Positions 14,789 through 24,243 are shown, counted from the first letter of the stretch. The stretch is DNA of 64,000 nucleotides from an uncultured Gammaproteobacteria bacterium (GCA_964500725.1 CAZCNP010000001.1:64766-128765), one strand, 5' to 3'. Numbers and translations are program-made. Notes: generated by a model from the sequence alone, not told the origin.

Positions 14789-16678
14789 TTAATTGGGAGT
14801 AAAGTTTATGGTAATAGTATAGATAGAATCATCATTTACTACATTTGAGAGGGAATCCTTATAGTAAGTTAGCACATCGCCATTACCATTCATCTGCTGG
14901 GTAACTGTTCTGGTTTTTCGAACACGATCACCTGCACCAACAGTCACTTCTTGTAAGTCAAATCCTGGAAAATCATTATATTGCTTAACGCGATCTAATC
15001 TATAAAGCCAACTATAATCCATATAAATAACACCAAATTTAAATCCATTGCCTCCTGTACCTACCTTCGTTTCGGTTACTGTCATAATTGCCAGACCTTT
15101 CCTGGGTGCCCGCCAAAAAATAACTGCTGTGTCAATCTGTCCTCCTAGAGAATGGCTTGGGGATAACATCATATAACTCGCTCCCCAAATATTACTATTA
15201 GGTGCTTTCCAATAAGGCTGTCCTGAAGGCACATCCATCCAAATTTCCGGTCCAGCTTCATAATTGGCCTGCTGTGTTGTGCCCCCATATTGCCAGACAT
15301 CTTGGCTGTAGTGGTAAAACCAGCAACGACTCCAGACAGGGTTATCTCCTGAGCATAAAGTAACATTTCCTAGGTTACCTGAATATTCGGAAGCCAAAGT
15401 ATGCGTTGATGGACAAGGCAAATTGGTACAAGTCCTTGAACTGTTACCTCCATCTAAGCTACTACAATCTGTGCCTTCGTTTGCAGGGGAGGGATTAGAA
15501 CAAGTTCTAGTTTGTGTGCCACTAGTACCACAAGCAGTTGCTGAACAAGCACTCCAATCAGACCATCCTCCATTAACAGGACATGCTTGAGTATTGCAAG
15601 CCACAGTTTCTGTTAAACCTCTTGTTACACCATCTGACAATAAACATTGAGATCCTCCATTGGCAGGAGAGGGATTTGTACAGGTTCTAGTTTGTGTGCC
15701 ACTAGTACCACAAGCTATGGCTGAACAACTACTCCAGGCAGTCCAAACACCATCAATCCTCTCCACCGGCCCTTGCTTTAATTTAATACTGACATCATAA
15801 CCTCGGCCATTACAAAGATAGCTTGAGTTATAATAATAAGGGCTTATAGCACCTGTGCTAGCGATAGTACTTGTGGAGTCTCGACTACTATAGTAAGCAA
15901 ATCCTCCTATACCCGGACATGTTCCATAACAGGAAGCCGTACAAGGTGTACACCGGTTTAAAATATTACTTAAATCAGAATTGCTTGGGCAACTCATGTA
16001 GACTGTTTTATTTGCTAGGCCGGCATCCGATGTTCTGCAATGGATGGCAGAAACAGTACTTAACATTGGCACAGTTGGACAAGCTGGACTAAGATCATAG
16101 GGAGTTGTTGTTCCACTTGAACCAATGGTAGAAACTGCTCCTGAAGGCAAAGTAGAACCATTATCATAGACTCCACCTCTAGAAATAGCAGCAATCAGAT
16201 TTTGAGCAGAAGCCCCTACAGATGTTTTACAATAACAATAATTCTGATTAGTTCCAGAAGCAAGACTATTTATACACTGCTGAGGAGTTACACCAGGAGG
16301 CGCGCTATCTAAAATACTACATGCTACAAATGACTTCCCGTCTGAACTGATAACATAATCATTGTCTTTAGGTGGAGTAGGCAAAGTGTTATTTACAAAA
16401 AATGAGGCAAGACTAGATAAACTGCTTAAAACAGGATAGCTAGCTGTTTTAATATTGTATTTTGACTCCATAACCTTGGCTATAGCATCAATATCTGCTT
16501 TTCTTTTAGTATCCCTGGCCTTTTGCCCAACTCCACTATACATTGTCAACCCAACCACACTTAACACCCCAATAATGGCTACTACTATCAAAAGCTCAAC
16601 TAAAGTAAACCCAGCACCACTTTTAGAACTCGGAAATGTGGTGCTGGGTAAACCCACACTTCTTTTTCTCATTTTCAT
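14789..16678 (-). CDS. pilin-like protein carrying two thrombospondin type-1 (TSP1) repeats and a Cys-rich C-terminal domain
   Basis: Leader SGAGFTLVELLIVVAIIGVL, plus WTAWSSCSAIACGTSGTQTRTCTNPSPANGGSQC and WSDWSACSATACGTSGTQTRTCSNPSPANEGTDC. Confidence 0.75.
   Translation of the reverse strand: MKMRKRSVGLPSTTFPSSKSGAGFTLVELLIVVAIIGVLSVVGLTMYSGVGQKARDTKRKADIDAIAKVMESKYNIKTASYPVLSSLSSLASFFVNNTLPTPPKDNDYVISSDGKSFVACSILDSAPPGVTPQQCINSLASGTNQNYCYCKTSVGASAQNLIAAISRGGVYDNGSTLPSGAVSTIGSSGTTTPYDLSPACPTVPMLSTVSAIHCRTSDAGLANKTVYMSCPSNSDLSNILNRCTPCTASCYGTCPGIGGFAYYSSRDSTSTIASTGAISPYYYNSSYLCNGRGYDVSIKLKQGPVERIDGVWTAWSSCSAIACGTSGTQTRTCTNPSPANGGSQCLLSDGVTRGLTETVACNTQACPVNGGWSDWSACSATACGTSGTQTRTCSNPSPANEGTDCSSLDGGNSSRTCTNLPCPSTHTLASEYSGNLGNVTLCSGDNPVWSRCWFYHYSQDVWQYGGTTQQANYEAGPEIWMDVPSGQPYWKAPNSNIWGASYMMLSPSHSLGGQIDTAVIFWRAPRKGLAIMTVTETKVGTGGNGFKFGVIYMDYSWLYRLDRVKQYNDFPGFDLQEVTVGAGDRVRKTRTVTQQMNGNGDVLTYYKDSLSNVVNDDSIYTITINFTPN
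15485..15750. repeat. two ~85-bp, ~90%-identical DNA segments 180 bp apart, encoding the two TSP1 repeats
   Basis: 15485-15570 versus 15665-15750. Also similar to 56105-56215 in the 1094-aa protein gene. Confidence 0.75.
16607..16655. repeat. pilin-leader hairpin repeat, copy B
   Basis: Same arms with a different loop. Here read in a different frame (GLPSTT...SGAGF) within pilin 14789..16678. Confidence 0.8.
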
Positions 16679-16920
16679 AATCCAATCCTTTTTTTTAATT
16701 CTCTTATTGAATTACCACTATATTTTAGTCTTTTTTCTCTTAATCTAGCTAAATTTTCCATATTGAAAGCTTCGTAATAATGAAGAGTCCATGGCTTATA
16801 TCGTTTAGTAGAAAATACTTCACCATTATTATGCTCCAATAAACGCCTTTCAAGATCGTTTGTAGATCCAATATAAATCTGATTATTAGACATACTAACT
16901 AAGATATAAACATAATACAT
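16675..16920 (-). CDS. GIY-YIG nuclease (homing-endonuclease-like, stand-alone domain)
   Basis: MYYVYILVS...QIYIGSTNDLERRLLEHNNG is the GIY-YIG motif block. Confidence 0.75.
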   Translation of the reverse strand: MYYVYILVSMSNNQIYIGSTNDLERRLLEHNNGEVFSTKRYKPWTLHYYEAFNMENLARLREKRLKYSGNSIRELKKRIGL

Positions 16921-16922
16921 AA

Positions 16923-16953
16923 GTGGTGCTGGGTAAAACCCTTTTTAGGCATT
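16923..16953 (-). pseudogene. orphan pilin start fragment (MPKKGFTQHH...) left upstream of the GIY-YIG gene
   Basis: The start context gggcattac and the right hairpin arm gtggtgctgggtaaaaccc are duplicated from pilin 18965..20023 (MPKNSGFTQHH). Confidence 0.5.
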
Positions 16954-16963
16954 ACTTCTATCT

Positions 16964-17008
16964 TGTCATTTTAGTCAGCAAATATGCAAGTATTTGTGGT
17001 AAAATTAG
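16964..17008 (+). promoter_or_regulatory. ~45-bp upstream element (promoter/operator candidate) of AbiEii-like cassette 1
   Basis: gtcattttagtcagcaaatatgcaagtatttgtggtaaaatt is repeated almost identically at 17943-17988 and contains a TAAAAT -10-like box. Confidence 0.45.
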
Positions 17009-17011
17009 ATT

Positions 17012-17305
17012 ATGCAACAAGCATCTATGAACAAGTTCTTGGCTTCGCCGATAAAACAGGCATTTTGGGATTATAATTTTACCGAACACCAGCTTCTGAA
17101 AAAATTGGCAAAAGGCACAAGAGAAGAAAAAACATGGATTATAGGCAGAATTTTGGAAAATCTTCCTTTTAATTCTATATGGAAATATACAACACCAAAA
17201 CAAGTAAAAGAAATCTTTCCATACCTTCACCTGCGCCCCAAACTTAAACAAATCTGGAGCTATACACTCTCTTTGTGGGGAAAATATGAAAAAACCTCTC
17301 ACTAA
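17012..17305 (+). CDS. small partner protein of the AbiEii-like nucleotidyltransferase (putative antitoxin/regulator; not AbiEi-like)
   Basis: 97 aa, overlaps the downstream NTase gene. Paralogous to 17991..18203 (WDYN...ILENL / INYGNL). Confidence 0.5.
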   Translation: MQQASMNKFLASPIKQAFWDYNFTEHQLLKKLAKGTREEKTWIIGRILENLPFNSIWKYTTPKQVKEIFPYLHLRPKLKQIWSYTLSLWGKYEKTSH

Positions 17306-17939
17306 ACTTCAGGAGGAGGTTCTTAAAAACTTTTTTGCCCAGCCAATTGGAAAATCCTACTTTTTGACTGGTGGCACTGCGCTTTCCGGATTTTATTTTT
17401 ACCATCGTGATAGTATTGATCTTGACTTTTTCACCTTTGAAACTATTGAAATTGAGCCTGTAAGACAGCTGCTCGAGATGGTTGCAAAAGAAGCCGGTTT
17501 ATCTTTGGATCATCGCGTGGCAACATCCGGATATCATAAATTTTTTCTGACAGGCAAAAAGGAGGAGCTTAAAATTGATCTGGTCAGAGAACAAAAGGTC
17601 CATTTTGGGGAAATTAAGACTTTTGGCAAAATAAAAGTGGATTCTATAGAAAACATTGGCAGTAATAAAATTACCGCAATTTTTGGCAGGACAGAGGCAA
17701 AAGACTTCATTGATCTTTATTTAATCTTGCAGAAGAAACTATTTACTTTTGAAAAACTCCTAAAAGATGCTAAAAAGAAGGATTTGGGTCTTTCTGAATT
17801 TTATCTGGCCCATATGCTTCTTGAAGTAAAAAATCTAAAAAATTTTCCCAAGATGTTAATTCCTTTTGACAAATCAACCATGAAAAACTATTTTATCTTG
17901 TTGGCAAACAGACTTCTAGTAGAAGCGAAGCCAGAATAA
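17286..17939 (+). CDS. AbiEii/DUF1814-family nucleotidyltransferase (type IV TA toxin-like)
   Basis: FLTGGTALSGFYFYHRDSIDLDFF N-terminal NTase motif. Confidence 0.65.
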   Translation: MKKPLTKLQEEVLKNFFAQPIGKSYFLTGGTALSGFYFYHRDSIDLDFFTFETIEIEPVRQLLEMVAKEAGLSLDHRVATSGYHKFFLTGKKEELKIDLVREQKVHFGEIKTFGKIKVDSIENIGSNKITAIFGRTEAKDFIDLYLILQKKLFTFEKLLKDAKKKDLGLSEFYLAHMLLEVKNLKNFPKMLIPFDKSTMKNYFILLANRLLVEAKPE

Positions 17940-17942
17940 ACA

Positions 17943-17988
17943 GTCATTTTAGTCAGCAAATATGCAAGTATTTTATGGTAAAATTATA
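17943..17988 (+). promoter_or_regulatory. second copy of the cassette upstream element
   Basis: Near-identical to 16964-17008. Confidence 0.45.
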
Positions 17989-17990
17989 GA

Positions 17991-18203
17991 GTGAAAACAC
18001 CTTACTTTATATGGGATTACAATATTAAAAATAATTGGCAGCCTAAAACCCAGGAGCAATGGGAATGGTTTTTAGTACGGAAGATTAATTATGGAAACCT
18101 CAAAGGTTTGAAAAAGGAAACTATCGCGGAATACTTTCCAAAAATAAAACAGATGCTCGATCCTGGCAAACGGGAGATGCTTGCGTACTTTCTAAACCAA
18201 TGA
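17991..18203 (+). CDS. small partner protein of the AbiEii-like NTase (paralog)
   Basis: 70 aa, overlaps the downstream gene start. Confidence 0.5.
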   Translation: MKTPYFIWDYNIKNNWQPKTQEQWEWFLVRKINYGNLKGLKKETIAEYFPKIKQMLDPGKREMLAYFLNQ

Positions 18204-18874
18204 ATTTAACAAAACTGCAAAAACTGGCAATAGAACTGTTAGCGCATTCTCCACTCAGGAACATTTTCTACTGGACTGGCGGAACGTTACTTGCATCTCA
18301 CTATTTACATCATCGGGAATCTATTGATCTTGATTTCTTTAGCGAAAAAAAGTTTTCTCTTGAAGAAATTAACCGTTTCACCCAGGAACTTAAAGAGAAA
18401 GGCGGTTTCGCAACCGTACATTACCAGAAAATATTCGATAGATATGAATTTCTGTTTGAAAATGAAGAACACCTACGGATAGAGTTTGTCTACTATAATC
18501 ACGAGAAAAAGACACTGAGAAAACGAGAACTTCTTAATGGAGTACACATTGATTCTTTAGATGATATTGCTGCAAATAAAGTAATGGCATACTTTGACAG
18601 AAACGAACCAAAAGATTTATTTGATATCTATTTCCTTATTCATAAATCAGGATTCAATCCTTTAAAATTATTGAAACTTGTCAAGCAAAAATTTGGCATT
18701 TCTTTTAACGAAGCATCTTTTTGGAGTGAGGCATTTAAATGTTTTCCCCTTCTTCATACTTTAAAACCCCTGATGCTTCAAAAAGAAGAGGACAAACAAA
18801 AACAATTACTCAAAACCATTGAAGATTATTTCCAAGAAGGCTCCGCAAGATTTCTACATAAAAACCTAGAATAA
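18200..18874 (+). CDS. AbiEii/DUF1814-family nucleotidyltransferase (paralog)
   Basis: YWTGGTLLASHYLHHRESIDLDFF. Confidence 0.65.
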   Translation: MNLTKLQKLAIELLAHSPLRNIFYWTGGTLLASHYLHHRESIDLDFFSEKKFSLEEINRFTQELKEKGGFATVHYQKIFDRYEFLFENEEHLRIEFVYYNHEKKTLRKRELLNGVHIDSLDDIAANKVMAYFDRNEPKDLFDIYFLIHKSGFNPLKLLKLVKQKFGISFNEASFWSEAFKCFPLLHTLKPLMLQKEEDKQKQLLKTIEDYFQEGSARFLHKNLE

Positions 18875-18888
18875 ATTAAAAATCTAAC

Positions 18889-18957
18889 CAATAATTGCTA
18901 CTACTATCAAAAGCTAGCTCAACCAGGGTAAACCCCTGGGGAGTTTTTTCATGCATT
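18889..18957 (-). pseudogene. pilin 5' fragment (MHEKTPQGFTLVELAFDSSS...), truncated
   Basis: DNA similar to the 5' end of pilin 14789..16678 (ctactactatcaaaagct...gtaaaccc); reaches a stop after about 25 codons. Confidence 0.5.
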
Positions 18958-20069: not shown

Positions 20070-21152
20070 TCAGAGGCATCCATTACCACTATTGTAAAGC
20101 AAGCCTACTTCACCGGCAGAGAGAGCCCTGTTATAGATCCTGGCATCATCAACCAAACCATTCATCCATTCTCCTCCTGTTATAGAATACCTTCCCATCA
20201 GAGAAACTCCATGATTATTCGTAAATGAATAATTAGTAGGTCCTGCTTTGAGCTCATTATCAACATATAAACTGGCTTTTGTGCCATCAAAGACACCAAC
20301 AATATGATACCAGCTATCATTTGTTACCATAAACGAAGTATTAACCACCCATGGAAGACCGCCACCACCGTTTTGACCAAACACCGGTGAATTAGCATCA
20401 CTAAGAGCTATCTCAGCAAAAGAAGTATTTGTACCAATAATAGTTCTCCAGCTGCCAGCTCCAGCTGCAGCTGGTTTTACCCATGCAGAAAATGTAAATG
20501 GTAAAGTTTTATCAGTGGGCAACACCTGGCCAGCATTTATATAATCATTGTTACCATCAAACTGTCCTGCATTACCAAATTTGCCCGTACTGACTGTAGC
20601 TCCAGAAGCCACACCATTATGATTATTACCTGATGAGTCTTTCACTTCACCTGCAGTATTGTTCCAATTTGTAGTCTCATCCATCTTCCAATATCCTATC
20701 AGCCCATAAATCAAGCTGTTGGTAGGATCACAGGTAGAATTTGATAGAGAATTAATTTGAGTAATAAGAGTGGTATCTCCTTGAGTAGAGGTAGCACAAG
20801 TACTAGTGTTATCATTCATAGTAGCGCAGACTTTATATGCTGTATTGCTATTTAGGCCACCTGCCCCGGGTCCTACAAAAAATATATATGATCCTCCTTC
20901 CGGAGGAGTAGGGATCTTACCGGAGGCAAAATTAGAATCCTGTAATGGTTTATATCCACCCTGGCCACCATTTGCAGTTGGATCATAATTTGTTTCATAG
21001 GCTTTTTTAATTGAGTCAATATCTGCTTTTCTTTTAGCATCCAAAGCATTAGACCTGACATTTTTATAAGAAACCAACACAATAGTATAGAGTATAGTCA
21101 GAATAGAAATAATAACCAGAAGTTCAATTAAGGTAAAAGCATTTTTCTTCAC
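20070..21152 (-). CDS. type IV pilin fused to a C-terminal LamG domain
   Basis: NAFTLIELLVIISILTIL; C-terminus LVDDARIYNRALSAGEVGLLYNSGNGCL. Confidence 0.75.
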   Translation of the reverse strand: MKKNAFTLIELLVIISILTILYTIVLVSYKNVRSNALDAKRKADIDSIKKAYETNYDPTANGGQGGYKPLQDSNFASGKIPTPPEGGSYIFFVGPGAGGLNSNTAYKVCATMNDNTSTCATSTQGDTTLITQINSLSNSTCDPTNSLIYGLIGYWKMDETTNWNNTAGEVKDSSGNNHNGVASGATVSTGKFGNAGQFDGNNDYINAGQVLPTDKTLPFTFSAWVKPAAAGAGSWRTIIGTNTSFAEIALSDANSPVFGQNGGGGLPWVVNTSFMVTNDSWYHIVGVFDGTKASLYVDNELKAGPTNYSFTNNHGVSLMGRYSITGGEWMNGLVDDARIYNRALSAGEVGLLYNSGNGCL

Positions 21153-22217: not shown

Positions 22218-22335
22218 ATTATTATTTGCTTAATTTTCTATATACTAATCTATTATTGATACAAATCTTTCGGGCTGTCAATACGTCAGTTCAAAGCTAA
22301 ATAGATAGATGTAAATACCACTCCATTAATTTATC

Positions 22336-22412
22336 TCCCCAATAGAGCATAATTAAACTACCTAATACCAAAAATGGCCCAAAGGGGATGGTTTGACCAA
22401 AGTGTGAAGATA
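22336..22412 (-). pseudogene. duplicated 3' fragment of pilD (~85% identical to 23356-23432)
   Basis: Reverse translation gives ...SHFGQTIPFGPFLVLGSLIMLYW, matching the PilD C-terminus KHFGQTIPFGPFLVLGSLIMLYW. Confidence 0.6.
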
Positions 22413-22427: not shown

Positions 22428-23072
22428 TCAAAGGTATTTTTTGACTTCATCTTCAAAAAAATGCTTTATCTCTTCCGGCTGGGGCAGGGAAACTTTTGCA
22501 ACCGGTGTAACAGAAAAACTGGATATATCACCAAAGTAAACCAGTTGTTCCAGGAAAAGTTTCTCACTAAAAGCACCCCCATAAACCTTTTCAGATACTG
22601 AAATAATTTGTTTTATATCAATATGACCCTGTTTTAAAATCGTGTACAAGTCAAAGTAATCCCTGTATTCTCCTCTTCTGCCAATTGTGTATGCTTTTTG
22701 TATAGCAATTTCCGGTATGGAAAATAGGGAAAGCCCTTTTCCTGTTTTCAAAATTTGGAAGTGCGGTTTGAAAGGATAGTAAAGAAAAGTAATTTTTATA
22801 CCATTTTTTGTAAATAAGGTTAGCTCGTCTAATGTGTCAATAACAACATTATCTATTGCCAATACCTGGGAAAGTTTTTCCAGTAATTTTTTGGGAATCT
22901 GGGAGGTACTAAAAAAATCAAAATCAAACGATTTACGGTGGGCAAGCTGAAGAGCAAGCGCAGTTCCTCCAGCTAACACAAACTCTTCAGTAAAGGGAAT
23001 GATTTTTTGTAATAAATCTCTCCTCTTATCATCCAAGATGCCGGGGTGTACTTTTGAGATATTTTTGTTCAT
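22428..23072 (-). CDS. AbiEii/DUF1814-family nucleotidyltransferase (third copy)
   Basis: FVLAGGTALALQLAHRKSFDFDFF. Confidence 0.6.
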   Translation of the reverse strand: MNKNISKVHPGILDDKRRDLLQKIIPFTEEFVLAGGTALALQLAHRKSFDFDFFSTSQIPKKLLEKLSQVLAIDNVVIDTLDELTLFTKNGIKITFLYYPFKPHFQILKTGKGLSLFSIPEIAIQKAYTIGRRGEYRDYFDLYTILKQGHIDIKQIISVSEKVYGGAFSEKLFLEQLVYFGDISSFSVTPVAKVSLPQPEEIKHFFEDEVKKYL

Positions 23073-23316
23073 CTAATTTAGTACTAATACCAAGAACTAT
23101 GTTCTTGATAAAGTTAAAAGCTGAGGCTGTATAAATTTTTTTGGGAAAACCCAGAAAACATTTTTTTACTTCTTTTTCTCCAACAACATTAAGAAGAGAT
23201 TTTATCTCTTCCAGCGAACCAAACATTAGCGTCTGATGGATATTGTCTAAAGAACCCTGTTCTACTTCATCTAAATACCATACACGTTTTGTACCCATGA
23301 ACAAATTATACCTCAA
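23029..23316 (-). CDS. small partner protein of the third AbiEii-like NTase
   Basis: 95 aa, upstream of and overlapping the NTase gene; unrelated in sequence to the other two partners. Confidence 0.4.
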   Translation of the reverse strand: MRYNLFMGTKRVWYLDEVEQGSLDNIHQTLMFGSLEEIKSLLNVVGEKEVKKCFLGFPKKIYTASAFNFIKNIVLGISTKLDEQKYLKSTPRHLG

Positions 23317-24243
23317 TTACTGCCCTAAATGAAGATACCAGTCAATAATTTGACTGCCCCAATATAGCATTATCAAACTTCCTAACACTAAAAATGGGCC
23401 AAAGGGGATTGTTTGGCCAAAATGCTTTTTACCCAGGAGTATCAGACCTACTGAAAATACAGCTCCTGTTAAAAATGATAAAATTAAAGCAACCAGGGCA
23501 TTAGGGAAGCCTAACATCAACCCTATAAAAGCCCCTAACTTAACATCCCCTCCACCCATACCTTTACCGCGGGTTATAATAATCAAGCTTAAGAAAAAAC
23601 CTCCAATTGCTAGCCCCATTAAAATAGATAACAAAAATGGCTGGGCAGTAATCAAAGCATGCCTTTGGAAATAATCACTATGTGGAGGAAGTAAGTATCT
23701 CCCCACTGGAGTCTGAGAAAGGTAAAAGTAAAGGTATCCAATCTTATATATGGTAAATAAAAATAGGGAAACTGCCCCCACAACAATAGCTGGCAAAATA
23801 ACCCTGTCTGGAATAAACATCTTTTTTAAATCTGTTAAAAAAAGAGCTGTTAAAACTGCTATAAAGAATATATTTAACAAAACTTCTATAACTTTAATTT
23901 GAAATTTGAAATTTGAAATTTGAAATTGAAGAGGGGAGAGACCTTGAAAGCTTTGAAAGAAAAGAAATCCTACCAATAATCCTACTGCCACCTCGACTAA
24001 TAAATACTCCATGCCAATTTTTTTCTTGCAATACCTGCATTTTCCAGCAAGCAGGATATAGGAGAAAATAGGAAAAAGGTCGTACCATCTAAGTTCTGTT
24101 TTGCAGAATAGACAATACGACCTTCCCTTAAAATACTTACCAATTAAACTTCGGTCAGCCAATACCTTCGTAAAACTCCCTAAAATAATGCCTATTAAAA
24201 ACCCGACTGACCCCCAAATGACCATTATGGCGCGTACGTACAA
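23317..24243 (-). CDS. pilD: prepilin peptidase (A24 family)
   Basis: N-terminal CxxC...CxxC zinc-finger region and catalytic GGGDVKLGAFIGLMLG motif. Confidence 0.85.
   Translation of the reverse strand: MYVRAIMVIWGSVGFLIGIILGSFTKVLADRSLIGKYFKGRSYCLFCKTELRWYDLFPIFSYILLAGKCRYCKKKIGMEYLLVEVAVGLLVGFLFFQSFQGLSPLQFQISNFKFQIKVIEVLLNIFFIAVLTALFLTDLKKMFIPDRVILPAIVVGAVSLFLFTIYKIGYLYFYLSQTPVGRYLLPPHSDYFQRHALITAQPFLLSILMGLAIGGFFLSLIIITRGKGMGGGDVKLGAFIGLMLGFPNALVALILSFLTGAVFSVGLILLGKKHFGQTIPFGPFLVLGSLIMLYWGSQIIDWYLHLGQ
23899..23926. repeat. (tttgaaa)x4 heptanucleotide tract inside the pilD coding sequence
   Basis: Four perfect copies; encodes FQISNFKFQI. Confidence 0.85.

What the first reader, a model, noticed from the sequence alone, without database searches (positions are those of the whole stretch)
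17012..18203. Small partner ORFs of the AbiEii-like NTases do not look like AbiEi
Canonical AbiE systems pair the DUF1814 NTase with a ~200-aa wHTH AbiEi antitoxin. Here the upstream partners are only 97, 70 and 95 aa. Two are mutually paralogous (17012..17305 and 17991..18203); the third is 23029..23316. All overlap the NTase start, implying translational coupling, and none has an obvious HTH. This could be a minimal or novel antitoxin/regulator family for DUF1814 NTases.
Basis: inference. Interest (0 to 1): 0.6.

Follow-up and report, generated by a model that had tools for sequence, protein, structure and literature searches.

The report
Small unannotated partners of AbiEii toxins
Three toxin-like nucleotidyltransferase genes in this candidate-phyla-radiation genome are each preceded by a tiny, conserved, unannotated helical protein that most likely acts as a minimal antitoxin, adding two new partner families to a toxin class already known to swap antitoxins.

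Summary
Three small ORFs (97, 70 and 89/95 aa) overlap the starts of three AbiEii/DUF1814 NTase genes by 20, 4 and 44 nt. All three NTases pass Pfam's PF08843 threshold and keep motifs I-IV and the R-x-S-x-D phospho-acceptor serine.

The small proteins are real genes, with 47, 84 and 16 homologue clusters, mostly from Patescibacteria. They match no AbiEi, COG5340 or HTH model, no PDB sequence (MenA1 included) and no PDB fold.

ORF1 and ORF2 are long and short subtypes of one "W-D-Y" superfamily (hhalign 95%, E 3.5e-8). This superfamily has only 67 clusters among 1.84 billion proteins. ORF3 belongs to a separate family. Both give only sub-threshold hits to Pfam DUF6922.

In 38 of 40 informative loci an AbiEii gene directly follows the small gene. 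Rare relatives carry a weak Phd/YefM-like or an RHH-like N-terminal extension and still precede AbiEii.

Best reading: these are minimal, DNA-binding-domain-less antitoxins that bind the NTase directly, like MenA1 with MenT1. Function is untested, and the proteins are basic, which is atypical for antitoxins.

Verdict: a new variant of a known kind, of moderate interest.

The parts
16965..17007 (+). Upstream or promoter stretch of module 1. TG-extended -10 box TGGTAAAAT at 16997-17005, ending 6 nt before the ATG at 17012. It is 95% identical to 17943-17986.
   Evidence: (D8); spacing read directly from the sequence
17012..17305 (+). Small partner 1 (97 aa), long subtype of the W-D-Y superfamily; putative minimal antitoxin
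17286..17939 (+). AbiEii/DUF1814 NTase 1 (217 aa), motifs I-IV intact (G29 G30; R41 S43 D45 D47; K128..R135; K139 D140..D143)
   Evidence: motif definitions from PMC3985639
17943..17986 (+). Upstream or promoter stretch of module 2. TGGTAAAAT at 17976-17984, ending 6 nt before the GTG at 17991.
17991..18203 (+). Small partner 2 (70 aa, GTG start), short subtype of the W-D-Y superfamily. AF2 model has three helices (pLDDT 87.9) after a flexible N-terminal W-D-Y segment.
18200..18874 (+). AbiEii/DUF1814 NTase 2 (224 aa), motifs intact
23029..23298 (-). Small partner 3 (89 aa from ATG 23298; longest ORF starts at TTG 23316). Separate family, all-helical AF2 model (pLDDT 70.8). -10 box TATAAT at 23310-23305, ending 6 nt before the ATG.
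22428..23072 (-). AbiEii/DUF1814 NTase 3 (214 aa), motifs intact
23326..23424 (-). 3' end of the prepilin peptidase gene; upstream copy of the ~99-nt direct repeat that brackets module 3
   Evidence: (D4)
22306..22404 (-). Orphan copy (79-81% identical) of the peptidase 3' end, directly after the NTase 3 stop; downstream boundary of the module 3 cassette
   Evidence: (D4)

Best explanation
These are three independent two-gene toxin-antitoxin-type cassettes. In each, a short, basic, all-helical protein with no DNA-binding domain is translated first, probably from a leaderless or near-leaderless mRNA. The AbiEii/DUF1814 nucleotidyltransferase is translated next, by coupling through the overlap. 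The NTase is the toxin; by analogy it adds nucleotides to tRNA 3' ends. The small protein is its cognate minimal antitoxin and acts by direct binding to the NTase. This resembles the way the 68-aa MenA1 blocks MenT1: it occludes the active site and possibly drives autophosphorylation of the conserved serine in the H-R-x-S-x-D-x-D loop. Two of the small proteins (ORF1 long, ORF2 short) belong to one 'W-D-Y' superfamily whose invariant N-terminal Trp-Asp-Tyr lies in a flexible segment, a plausible contact motif. The third belongs to an unrelated family doing the same job. Shown here: gene structure, conservation, family relationships, tight pairing, intact catalytic motifs, and lack of any known antitoxin or HTH signature. 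Inferred: toxicity, antitoxicity, direct binding and autophosphorylation.
For: Pairing: an AbiEii-like ORF directly follows or overlaps the small gene in 38 of 40 loci with enough downstream DNA, in unrelated neighbourhoods such as a pilin cluster, the dnaA region and RNase HII. The same holds for remote relatives at 58% GC. Gene order and overlaps of 20, 4 and 44 nt fit antitoxin-first TA operons. All three NTases pass PF08843 and keep hGG, R-x3-D-h-D, K-x6-R and K-D-x-x-D, the residues whose mutation abolishes AbiEii toxicity (PMC3985639). They also keep Ser two residues before the first catalytic Asp, with the same spacing as MenT1 R37/T39/D41 and MenT3 R76/S78/D80 (PMC11375011). The small proteins have no DNA-binding or AbiEi signature. 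The AF2 model of family 2 is confident (pLDDT 87.9): three helices after a lower-confidence N-terminal W-D-Y segment. Fusion evidence: rare relatives carry N-terminal extensions. P0164 has a weak Phd/YefM hit (E 0.029) and a top PDB hit to antitoxin VapB46 (E 0.098). P0193 and P0207 have a beta-alpha-alpha RHH-like pattern. All still precede AbiEii. This is the classic DNA-binding plus neutralising-domain layout of type II antitoxins and places the W-D-Y domain in the neutralising position. Precedent: MenA1 (68 aa, two helices, no wHTH) neutralises MenT1, and even a single helix suffices (PMC10435456, PMC11375011). AbiEi is also now reported to bind AbiEii and induce autophosphorylation (bioRxiv 10.64898/2026.01.19.700257).
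Against: No experiment and no complex model: toxicity, neutralisation and binding are all inferred. The small proteins are basic (pI 9.1-9.9; family medians about 9.8), unlike typical acidic neutralising domains, so nucleic-acid binding is not excluded. There is no sequence or fold similarity to MenA1, so the mechanistic analogy rests on size, position and the toxin family only. The Phd/YefM and RHH assignments of the fusion extensions are below significance or pattern-based. One locus lacks the NTase (L027) and one has a degraded NTase (L024). Three copies in a small CPR genome could also mean the NTases are not strongly toxic.
Confidence: 0.6

Rival explanations
1. The small proteins are simply divergent members of the existing Pfam family DUF6922. 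On this reading they are not new families, although DUF6922 itself has no known function. This is a rival about identity, not about mechanism.
For: DUF6922 is the only Pfam family that recurs. It hits 15 of 19 family 1 members, 6 of 17 family 3 members and 12 of 57 superfamily representatives; the best hit is E 1.4e-4 at 21.7 bits. Family 1-type proteins match model positions 2-36, and family 3 proteins match positions 24-51.
Against: No member reaches the gathering score of 27 bits; window ORF1 scores 14.5 bits and ORF2 and ORF3 get no hit. Family 3 and the W-D-Y superfamily show no profile-profile similarity to each other (E 0.12-0.24), which is hard to reconcile with both belonging to one 52-residue family. 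The precomputed Pfam annotation of all 147 homologues is empty.
Confidence: 0.35
2. The small basic helical proteins are nucleic-acid binders: cryptic transcriptional autorepressors of the operon, or proteins that shield the tRNA target. On this reading they counteract the NTase without binding it, as in the original type IV AbiE model.
For: Basic pI across all three families. Small helical bundles. Modules 1 and 2 share a 44-nt, 95% identical upstream stretch containing a short inverted repeat, CAAATA-N6-TATTTG, that could be an operator.
Against: No HTH, RHH or other DNA-binding profile hit. Foldseek finds no PDB neighbour despite thousands of HTH structures there. Some relatives acquired separate putative DNA-binding extensions, which suggests the core domain does not bind DNA. 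The shared upstream stretch is absent from all other loci. MenAT1 shows no autoregulation (PMC11375011), and AbiEi itself is now reported to bind AbiEii.
Confidence: 0.15
3. The roles are reversed or non-TA. The small protein is the effector, or a substrate or specificity adaptor, and the NTase modifies or controls it, as the MntA nucleotidyltransferase AMPylates HepT. Alternatively, the pair is a housekeeping RNA-modification module.
For: NTase-as-antitoxin exists in HepT/MntA systems; one such pair sits in the same hotspot in the sister genome. The three coexisting copies may argue against strong toxicity.
Against: Every characterised DUF1814 NTase (AbiEii, MenT1, MenT3, MenT4) is the toxin (PMC3985639, PMC7450476, PMC10435456). 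The small gene is upstream and translationally coupled, like an antitoxin. The antitoxin-like N-terminal fusions are on the small protein. Patchy, cassette-like distribution with flanking repeats argues against housekeeping.
Confidence: 0.07
4. The small ORFs are truncated or degraded AbiEi/COG5340 genes.
For: None found beyond their position upstream of AbiEii.
Against: No AbiEi or COG5340 hit in Pfam, NCBIfam or PADLOC, even at E up to 1. No PDB hit to AbiEi, MenA3 or MenA4. Length and sequence are conserved over dozens of clusters, which is the signature of intact genes.
Confidence: 0.02

Closest known systems
MenA1-MenT1 (Rv0078B-Rv0078A) of Mycobacterium tuberculosis
   Same: A DUF1814 NTase toxin is preceded by a very short (68 aa) helical antitoxin that lacks any wHTH or DNA-binding domain. 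The toxin has a Ser/Thr phospho-acceptor two residues before the catalytic Asp; here the motif is H-R-x-S-x-D-x-D.
   Different: No detectable sequence or fold similarity between MenA1 and any of the three small proteins. The models here are 3- to 5-helix bundles with a conserved N-terminal aromatic motif, not a two-helix V. The NTases are closer to JHP933 than to MenT1. Binding and phosphorylation are untested here.
AbiEi-AbiEii (Streptococcus agalactiae / Lactococcus) abortive-infection TA system
   Same: The toxin belongs to the same Pfam family, PF08843, with motifs I-IV. Both are overlapping bicistronic operons with the partner gene first.
   Different: The partner is not a ~200-aa COG5340 wHTH + CTD protein. 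PADLOC AbiEi models do not match it, so defence finders would score these as orphan AbiEii genes.
JHP932-JHP933 of Helicobacter pylori (PDB 4O8S/4OK0) and related plasmid loci
   Same: JHP933 is the closest solved structure to these NTases by profile (E 2e-8; identity of 4O8S confirmed in PMC4125220). It also has an overlapping upstream gene in 'classic TA configuration' (PMC7450476).
   Different: Upstream partners of JHP933-like NTases on plasmids (129-aa and 180-aa hypotheticals, and a 231-aa HTH_3 protein) do not match the HMMs of the families here.
Pfam DUF6922 (PF21956), uncharacterised
   Same: The only recurrent, though weak, profile similarity for both small-protein families.
   Different: All scores are below gathering (at most 21.7 bits against 27). 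No literature exists on it. Its genomic context could not be retrieved.
Type II antitoxins with an N-terminal Phd/YefM or RHH DNA-binding domain and a C-terminal neutralising domain
   Same: Rare superfamily members (P0164, P0193, P0207) have this two-part layout, with the W-D-Y domain in the C-terminal position, and still precede AbiEii.
   Different: The window's proteins consist of the W-D-Y domain alone. The N-terminal domain assignments are weak (E 0.029; pattern only).

Membership tests
AbiE (AbiEi/AbiEii) system | Toxin is a DUF1814/PF08843 NTase with motifs I-IV (hG[G/S]...R..DhD; K-x6-R; +DxxD) | tested here: met
   PF08843 scores of 50.9, 69.6 and 49.2 bits against GA 22.5. Invariant G29 G30, R41, D45, D47, K128, R135, D140 and D143 in all three NTases and in seven relatives. 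Definitions from PMC3985639.
AbiE (AbiEi/AbiEii) system | Partner is a COG5340 AbiEi protein of ~200 aa: N-terminal wHTH plus C-terminal antitoxicity domain | tested here: not met
   The partners are 97, 70 and 89 aa. No AbiEi, COG5340 or HTH hit in Pfam, NCBIfam or PADLOC. No PDB sequence or Foldseek hit.
AbiE (AbiEi/AbiEii) system | Bicistronic operon, partner gene first, genes overlapping or abutting | tested here: met
   Overlaps of 20, 4 and 44 nt. The same arrangement is seen in related loci.
AbiE (AbiEi/AbiEii) system | Toxicity neutralised by the partner; abortive-infection phenotype | not testable with these tools
   Requires expression and phage-challenge assays.
MenAT1-type (MenA1-like minimal antitoxin) | Short helical antitoxin without a DNA-binding domain, upstream of a DUF1814 toxin | tested here: met
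   70-97 aa. AF2 models are all-helical. No DNA-binding profile hit.
MenAT1-type (MenA1-like minimal antitoxin) | Homology to MenA1 (sequence or fold) | tested here: not met
MenAT1-type (MenA1-like minimal antitoxin) | Toxin carries the Ser/Thr phospho-acceptor two residues before the catalytic Asp (R-x-[ST]-x-D) | tested here: met
   Invariant H-R-x-S-x-D-x-D in all 10 aligned NTases. Compare MenT1 R37/T39/D41 and MenT3 R76/S78/D80.
MenAT1-type (MenA1-like minimal antitoxin) | Antitoxin binds the toxin and induces autophosphorylation | not testable with these tools
   No complex prediction tool was available; needs biochemistry.
Pfam DUF6922 (PF21956) | Whole-protein score at or above the gathering threshold (27 bits) | tested here: not met
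   Window ORF1 scores 14.5 bits; ORF2 and ORF3 get no hit. The best relative scores 21.7 bits. Family 3 relatives score 12-13.8 bits.
Pfam DUF6922 (PF21956) | Distant (superfamily-level) relationship by profile-profile comparison | not tested
Classical type II antitoxin (Phd/YefM, RHH) | Recognisable N-terminal DNA-binding or dimerisation domain | tested here: not met
   Absent from the three window proteins. Present only as weak or pattern-level extensions in rare relatives.

The most novel reading that the evidence does not exclude
The W-D-Y superfamily and the family 3 proteins are two previously unrecognised, structurally novel antitoxin families for DUF1814 toxins. They neutralise the toxin through a short N-terminal aromatic/acidic plug (W-D-Y or W-Y) that inserts into the NTase active site and triggers serine autophosphorylation. 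They travel as self-contained, leaderless-mRNA cassettes that insert at the ends of type IV pilus genes in CPR bacteria and regenerate the host gene end. If so, this would be a small site-specific TA or defence cassette system guarding the pilus locus.
Probability: 0.2. Interest if true: 0.6.

Novelty: new variant of a known kind. Interest (0 to 1): 0.4.

Why it matters
DUF1814/AbiEii NTases are a widespread toxin and abortive-infection class. How different antitoxins control them is an active question: the published models range from type IV, to type VII, to antitoxin-induced autophosphorylation. Two more unrelated minimal partners would give independent natural test cases for whether any small binder can trigger autophosphorylation. 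These partners have no known fold, no DNA-binding domain and tightly conserved pairing.

There is also a practical point. Defence and TA finders that require AbiEi (for example PADLOC) will call these loci orphan AbiEii genes, and so under-count such systems in CPR genomes. The gain is incremental, because MenA1 already established the principle and partner swapping among TA toxins is well known.

Tried and rejected
- Truncated AbiEi/COG5340: rejected, with no hits in Pfam, NCBIfam or PADLOC.
- Homology to MenA1, AbiEi, MenA3/4 or any solved structure: none by profile-versus-PDB or by Foldseek. A hit of family 2 to a designed helical repeat protein (8g8i, E 6e-5, 24 residues, no stretch passing on its own) was judged compositional.
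- Literature search for DUF6922: zero papers.
- tblastn of the relative closest to DUF6922 against plasmids: no match.
- Source names for remote relatives: none.
- Viral contigs: no relatives of family 1 or family 2, so there is no evidence of phage carriage.
- The genome-contig scan with the merged alignment confirmed only 3 loci, because confirmation used ORF1. The alignment of distant representatives was too diverse to seed a scan.
- A link between family 3 and families 1/2: not supported.
- RHH assignment for the P0193 and P0207 N-termini: no Pfam or PDB support, so it is kept as a pattern-level inference only.
- Partners of JHP933-like NTases on plasmids: unrelated to the families here.
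- The shared 44-nt upstream repeat as a family-wide operator: rejected, because it is absent from all other loci.
- The generic sigma-70 scan did not flag the module promoters, because it requires a -35 match. The -10 boxes were read directly from the sequence.

Full report
**What is there.** The window (37% GC) matches a Candidatus Daviesbacteria genome: small protein 3 is 100% identical to HY383_03675. The region 14.8-26 kb is a type IV pilus locus. It holds several pilin-like genes with N_methyl motifs, a prepilin peptidase and a T2SSF-like platform gene. Three two-gene modules are embedded in it.
- Module 1: small ORF 17012..17305 (97 aa) and NTase 17286..17939 (217 aa).
- Module 2: small ORF 17991..18203 (70 aa, GTG start) and NTase 18200..18874 (224 aa).
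- Module 3, on the minus strand: small ORF 23298..23029 (89 aa; 95 aa if counted from the TTG at 23316) and NTase 23072..22428 (214 aa).

The overlaps are 20, 4 and 44 nt. An HMM scan of all window ORFs finds exactly these three NTases and three partners.

**The NTases are genuine AbiEii/DUF1814 proteins.** All three exceed the PF08843 gathering score (50.9, 69.6 and 49.2 bits against 22.5) and hit 12-19 PADLOC AbiEii models each. They are only 28-32% identical to one another. They nonetheless share every residue defined as essential in AbiEii (PMC3985639):
- motif I, G29 G30;
- motif II, R41-x3-D45-x-D47;
- motif III, K128-x6-R135;
- motif IV, K139-D140-x-x-D143.

These residues are also invariant in seven relatives. 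The loop reads H-R-x-S-x-D-x-D, with the same R/S/D spacing as the phospho-acceptor loops of MenT1 (R37/T39/D41) and MenT3 (R76/S78/D80) (PMC11375011). By profile, the closest solved structure is H. pylori JHP933 (4O8S/4OK0, E 2e-8), not MenT1/3/4 or AbiEii. JHP933 itself has an overlapping upstream gene (PMC7450476).

**The small ORFs are real genes without annotation.** Homology searches return 47, 84 and 16 clusters respectively. Named sources are Daviesbacteria, Gottesmanbacteria and 'Patescibacteria group', and none carries a precomputed Pfam domain or an informative name. Conservation is strong and column-specific:
- family 1 has invariant Q-A-F-W-D-Y, K31, L32, G35 and W89;
- family 2 has W8, D9, Y10, W26, L28, R30, N33, D57 and K60;
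- family 3 has 23 invariant columns.

None hits AbiEi, COG5340 or any HTH model in Pfam, NCBIfam or PADLOC, even at E up to 1. Profile searches against all PDB chains at E up to 10 return neither MenA1 nor AbiEi nor MenA3/4.

**Relationships among the three.**
- Pairwise, ORF1 and ORF2 are 25% identical (E 0.05), and first-pass hhalign gave E 1e-3.
- A merged alignment is collinear, with invariant W-D-Y and R46.
- Used as a profile against 1.84 billion representatives, it retrieved only 67 clusters at E up to 1e-3. These fall into a long subtype (like ORF1) and a short subtype (like ORF2).
- With these enriched alignments, hhalign links long and short subtypes at 95% probability and E 3.5e-8 over 81 columns.
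- Each subtype HMM hits the other subtype's window ORF as its only cross-hit.

Family 3 shows no similarity to either subtype.

**DUF6922.** The only recurrent Pfam signal is sub-threshold PF21956. It appears in 15 of 19 family 1 members, 6 of 17 family 3 members and 12 of 57 superfamily representatives. The best score is 21.7 bits (E 1.4e-4) against a gathering score of 27. Family 1-type proteins match model positions 2-36, and family 3 proteins match positions 24-51. I treat this as a possible distant relationship, not as membership. No paper mentions DUF6922, and I could not retrieve the context of confirmed members.

**Co-occurrence.** In 40 fetched loci with enough downstream sequence, 38 have an AbiEii-like ORF starting at or overlapping the end of the small gene. 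One has only NTase fragments (L024) and one has none (L027). Some of these loci are near-duplicates of one another.

The neighbourhoods are otherwise unrelated: pilin genes, dnaA/dnaN, RNase HII, AAA_14 genes. Tandem modules recur (L006-L008, L032). Remote long-subtype members, including two loci at 58-59% GC that are presumably non-CPR, are also followed by overlapping AbiEii genes. No relatives were found on IMG/VR viral contigs.

**Fusion evidence.** A few superfamily members carry N-terminal extensions of about 65 aa.
- P0164 has a weak Phd/YefM match (E 0.029, model positions 2-43), and its best PDB hit is antitoxin VapB46 (E 0.098).
- P0193 and P0207 share a strand-helix-helix pattern typical of RHH domains, but with no database support.
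- P0164 and P0193 were checked, and both precede overlapping AbiEii genes.

This layout, a DNA-binding domain followed by a neutralising domain, is that of classical type II antitoxins. It places the W-D-Y domain in the neutralising role, and the window's proteins are that domain alone.

**Expression signals.** In all three window modules a -10-like box ends exactly 6 nt before the start codon: TGGTAAAAT for modules 1 and 2, TATAAT for module 3. In nearly all related loci a TATAAT, TATACT, TAAAAT or TACAAT box, often TG-extended, ends 6-10 nt before the ATG. This implies leaderless or near-leaderless small-gene mRNAs, with the NTase translated by coupling. That step is inference from promoter geometry; no transcript data were available.

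**Mechanism.** The best-supported model is a minimal, DNA-binding-domain-less antitoxin that binds its NTase directly. The precedents are as follows.
- MenA1 binds MenT1, and even a single helix suffices for neutralisation (PMC10435456, PMC11375011).
- AbiEi is now reported to bind AbiEii and induce autophosphorylation through a short acidic/hydrophobic loop, D85/E86/I87 (bioRxiv 10.64898/2026.01.19.700257).
- The conserved serine in the NTase loop makes antitoxin-induced autophosphorylation plausible here.
- The invariant, flexible W-D-Y segment is a candidate contact motif. This last point is speculative.

The main caveat is that all three small-protein families are basic (median pI about 9.8). 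This leaves room for nucleic-acid binding.

**Comparison and novelty.** The toxin side is ordinary AbiEii. The partner side fails the AbiEi membership test and shows no homology to MenA1, but it works like MenA1 in outline. DUF1814 toxins are already known to pair with unrelated antitoxins: COG5340, COG4861 and MenA1. This is therefore a new variant of a known kind: two uncharacterised partner families, one a small superfamily of 67 clusters, enriched in CPR bacteria. Interest is moderate. It is useful for TA and defence annotation and as an independent test of the autophosphorylation model, but it is not a new principle.

Noticed in passing
window 16965-17007 and 17943-17986: The upstream regions of modules 1 and 2 are 95% identical over 44 nt (31 nt exact). 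The small proteins they precede are only 25% identical and the NTases only 32%. The stretch contains CAAATA-N6-TATTTG and is absent from 51 related loci. Possible explanations are promoter gene conversion, a shared operator or a cassette boundary.
   Followed up: partly
window 16997-17014, 17976-17993, 23310-23296; loci L001-L048 upstream of the small genes: A -10-like box ends exactly 6 nt before the start codon in all three modules (including the GTG start of module 2), and 6-10 nt before it in nearly all related loci. There is no Shine-Dalgarno sequence, which suggests leaderless mRNAs.
   Followed up: partly
window 22306-22404 and 23326-23424; L010 2854-2952, 4630-4721, 5594-5643: Module 3 is bracketed by a ~99-nt direct repeat (79-81% identical) of the 3' end of the prepilin peptidase gene. 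In sister Daviesbacteria the same repeat occurs three times. The copies separate the AbiEii module plus an IS200-like Y1 transposase gene from a HepT/MNT toxin-antitoxin pair. This looks like a repeated-insertion hotspot that regenerates the host gene end.
   Followed up: partly
window 18885-18954 (-), 16922-16968 (-), 16569-16612: Orphan pilin 5'-end fragments flank modules 1 and 2. One reads 'MHEKTPQGFTLVEL...' and then goes out of frame. The other is a remnant of a pilin start, 'MPKKGFTQHH'. The tandem modules therefore appear to have been inserted into, or recombined within, a pilin gene.
   Followed up: partly
window 16675-16920 (-): An 81-aa stand-alone GIY-YIG nuclease gene (PF01541, 59.5 bits) sits between the large pilin gene and module 1. 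It is bracketed by 28-nt imperfect repeats (16637-16664 and 16922-16949) and may be a small mobile homing-type element.
   Followed up: partly
window 14789-16678 (-): A 629-aa pilin-like protein with an N_methyl motif carries two thrombospondin type 1 repeats (PF00090, 27.7 bits against GA 21.6; internal DNA repeat 15474-15576 and 15654-15756). This is an unusual adhesin-type domain for a bacterial pilin. The neighbouring pilin 20070-21152 carries a Laminin_G_3 lectin domain (94 bits).
   Followed up: partly
L006-L008 (439-1294 and 3001-3869), L032, L038, L019: Tandem or nearby duplicated small-gene + AbiEii modules recur in other CPR contigs, as in this window. This suggests that the cassettes accumulate side by side.
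   Followed up: no
L013, L015 (GTDB representative contigs CAZYPW010000006.1, CAYNFQ010000002.1): These records are titled 'uncultured Gammaproteobacteria bacterium', yet they carry family 1 modules 60-82% identical to the window's and have 36-37% GC. The record titles may be taxonomically wrong, or the bins may be mixed.
   Followed up: no
P0153 (128 aa), P0186 (287 aa): P0153 is a short-subtype W-D-Y domain fused to a hydrophobic, probably membrane-spanning, C-terminal tail. P0186 contains six tandem copies of a segment that matches profile positions 21-44. The significance of both is unknown.
   Followed up: no
L053, L054 (58-59% GC): Long-subtype W-D-Y proteins paired with AbiEii also occur on high-GC contigs. 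The superfamily is therefore not strictly confined to low-GC CPR genomes.
   Followed up: partly
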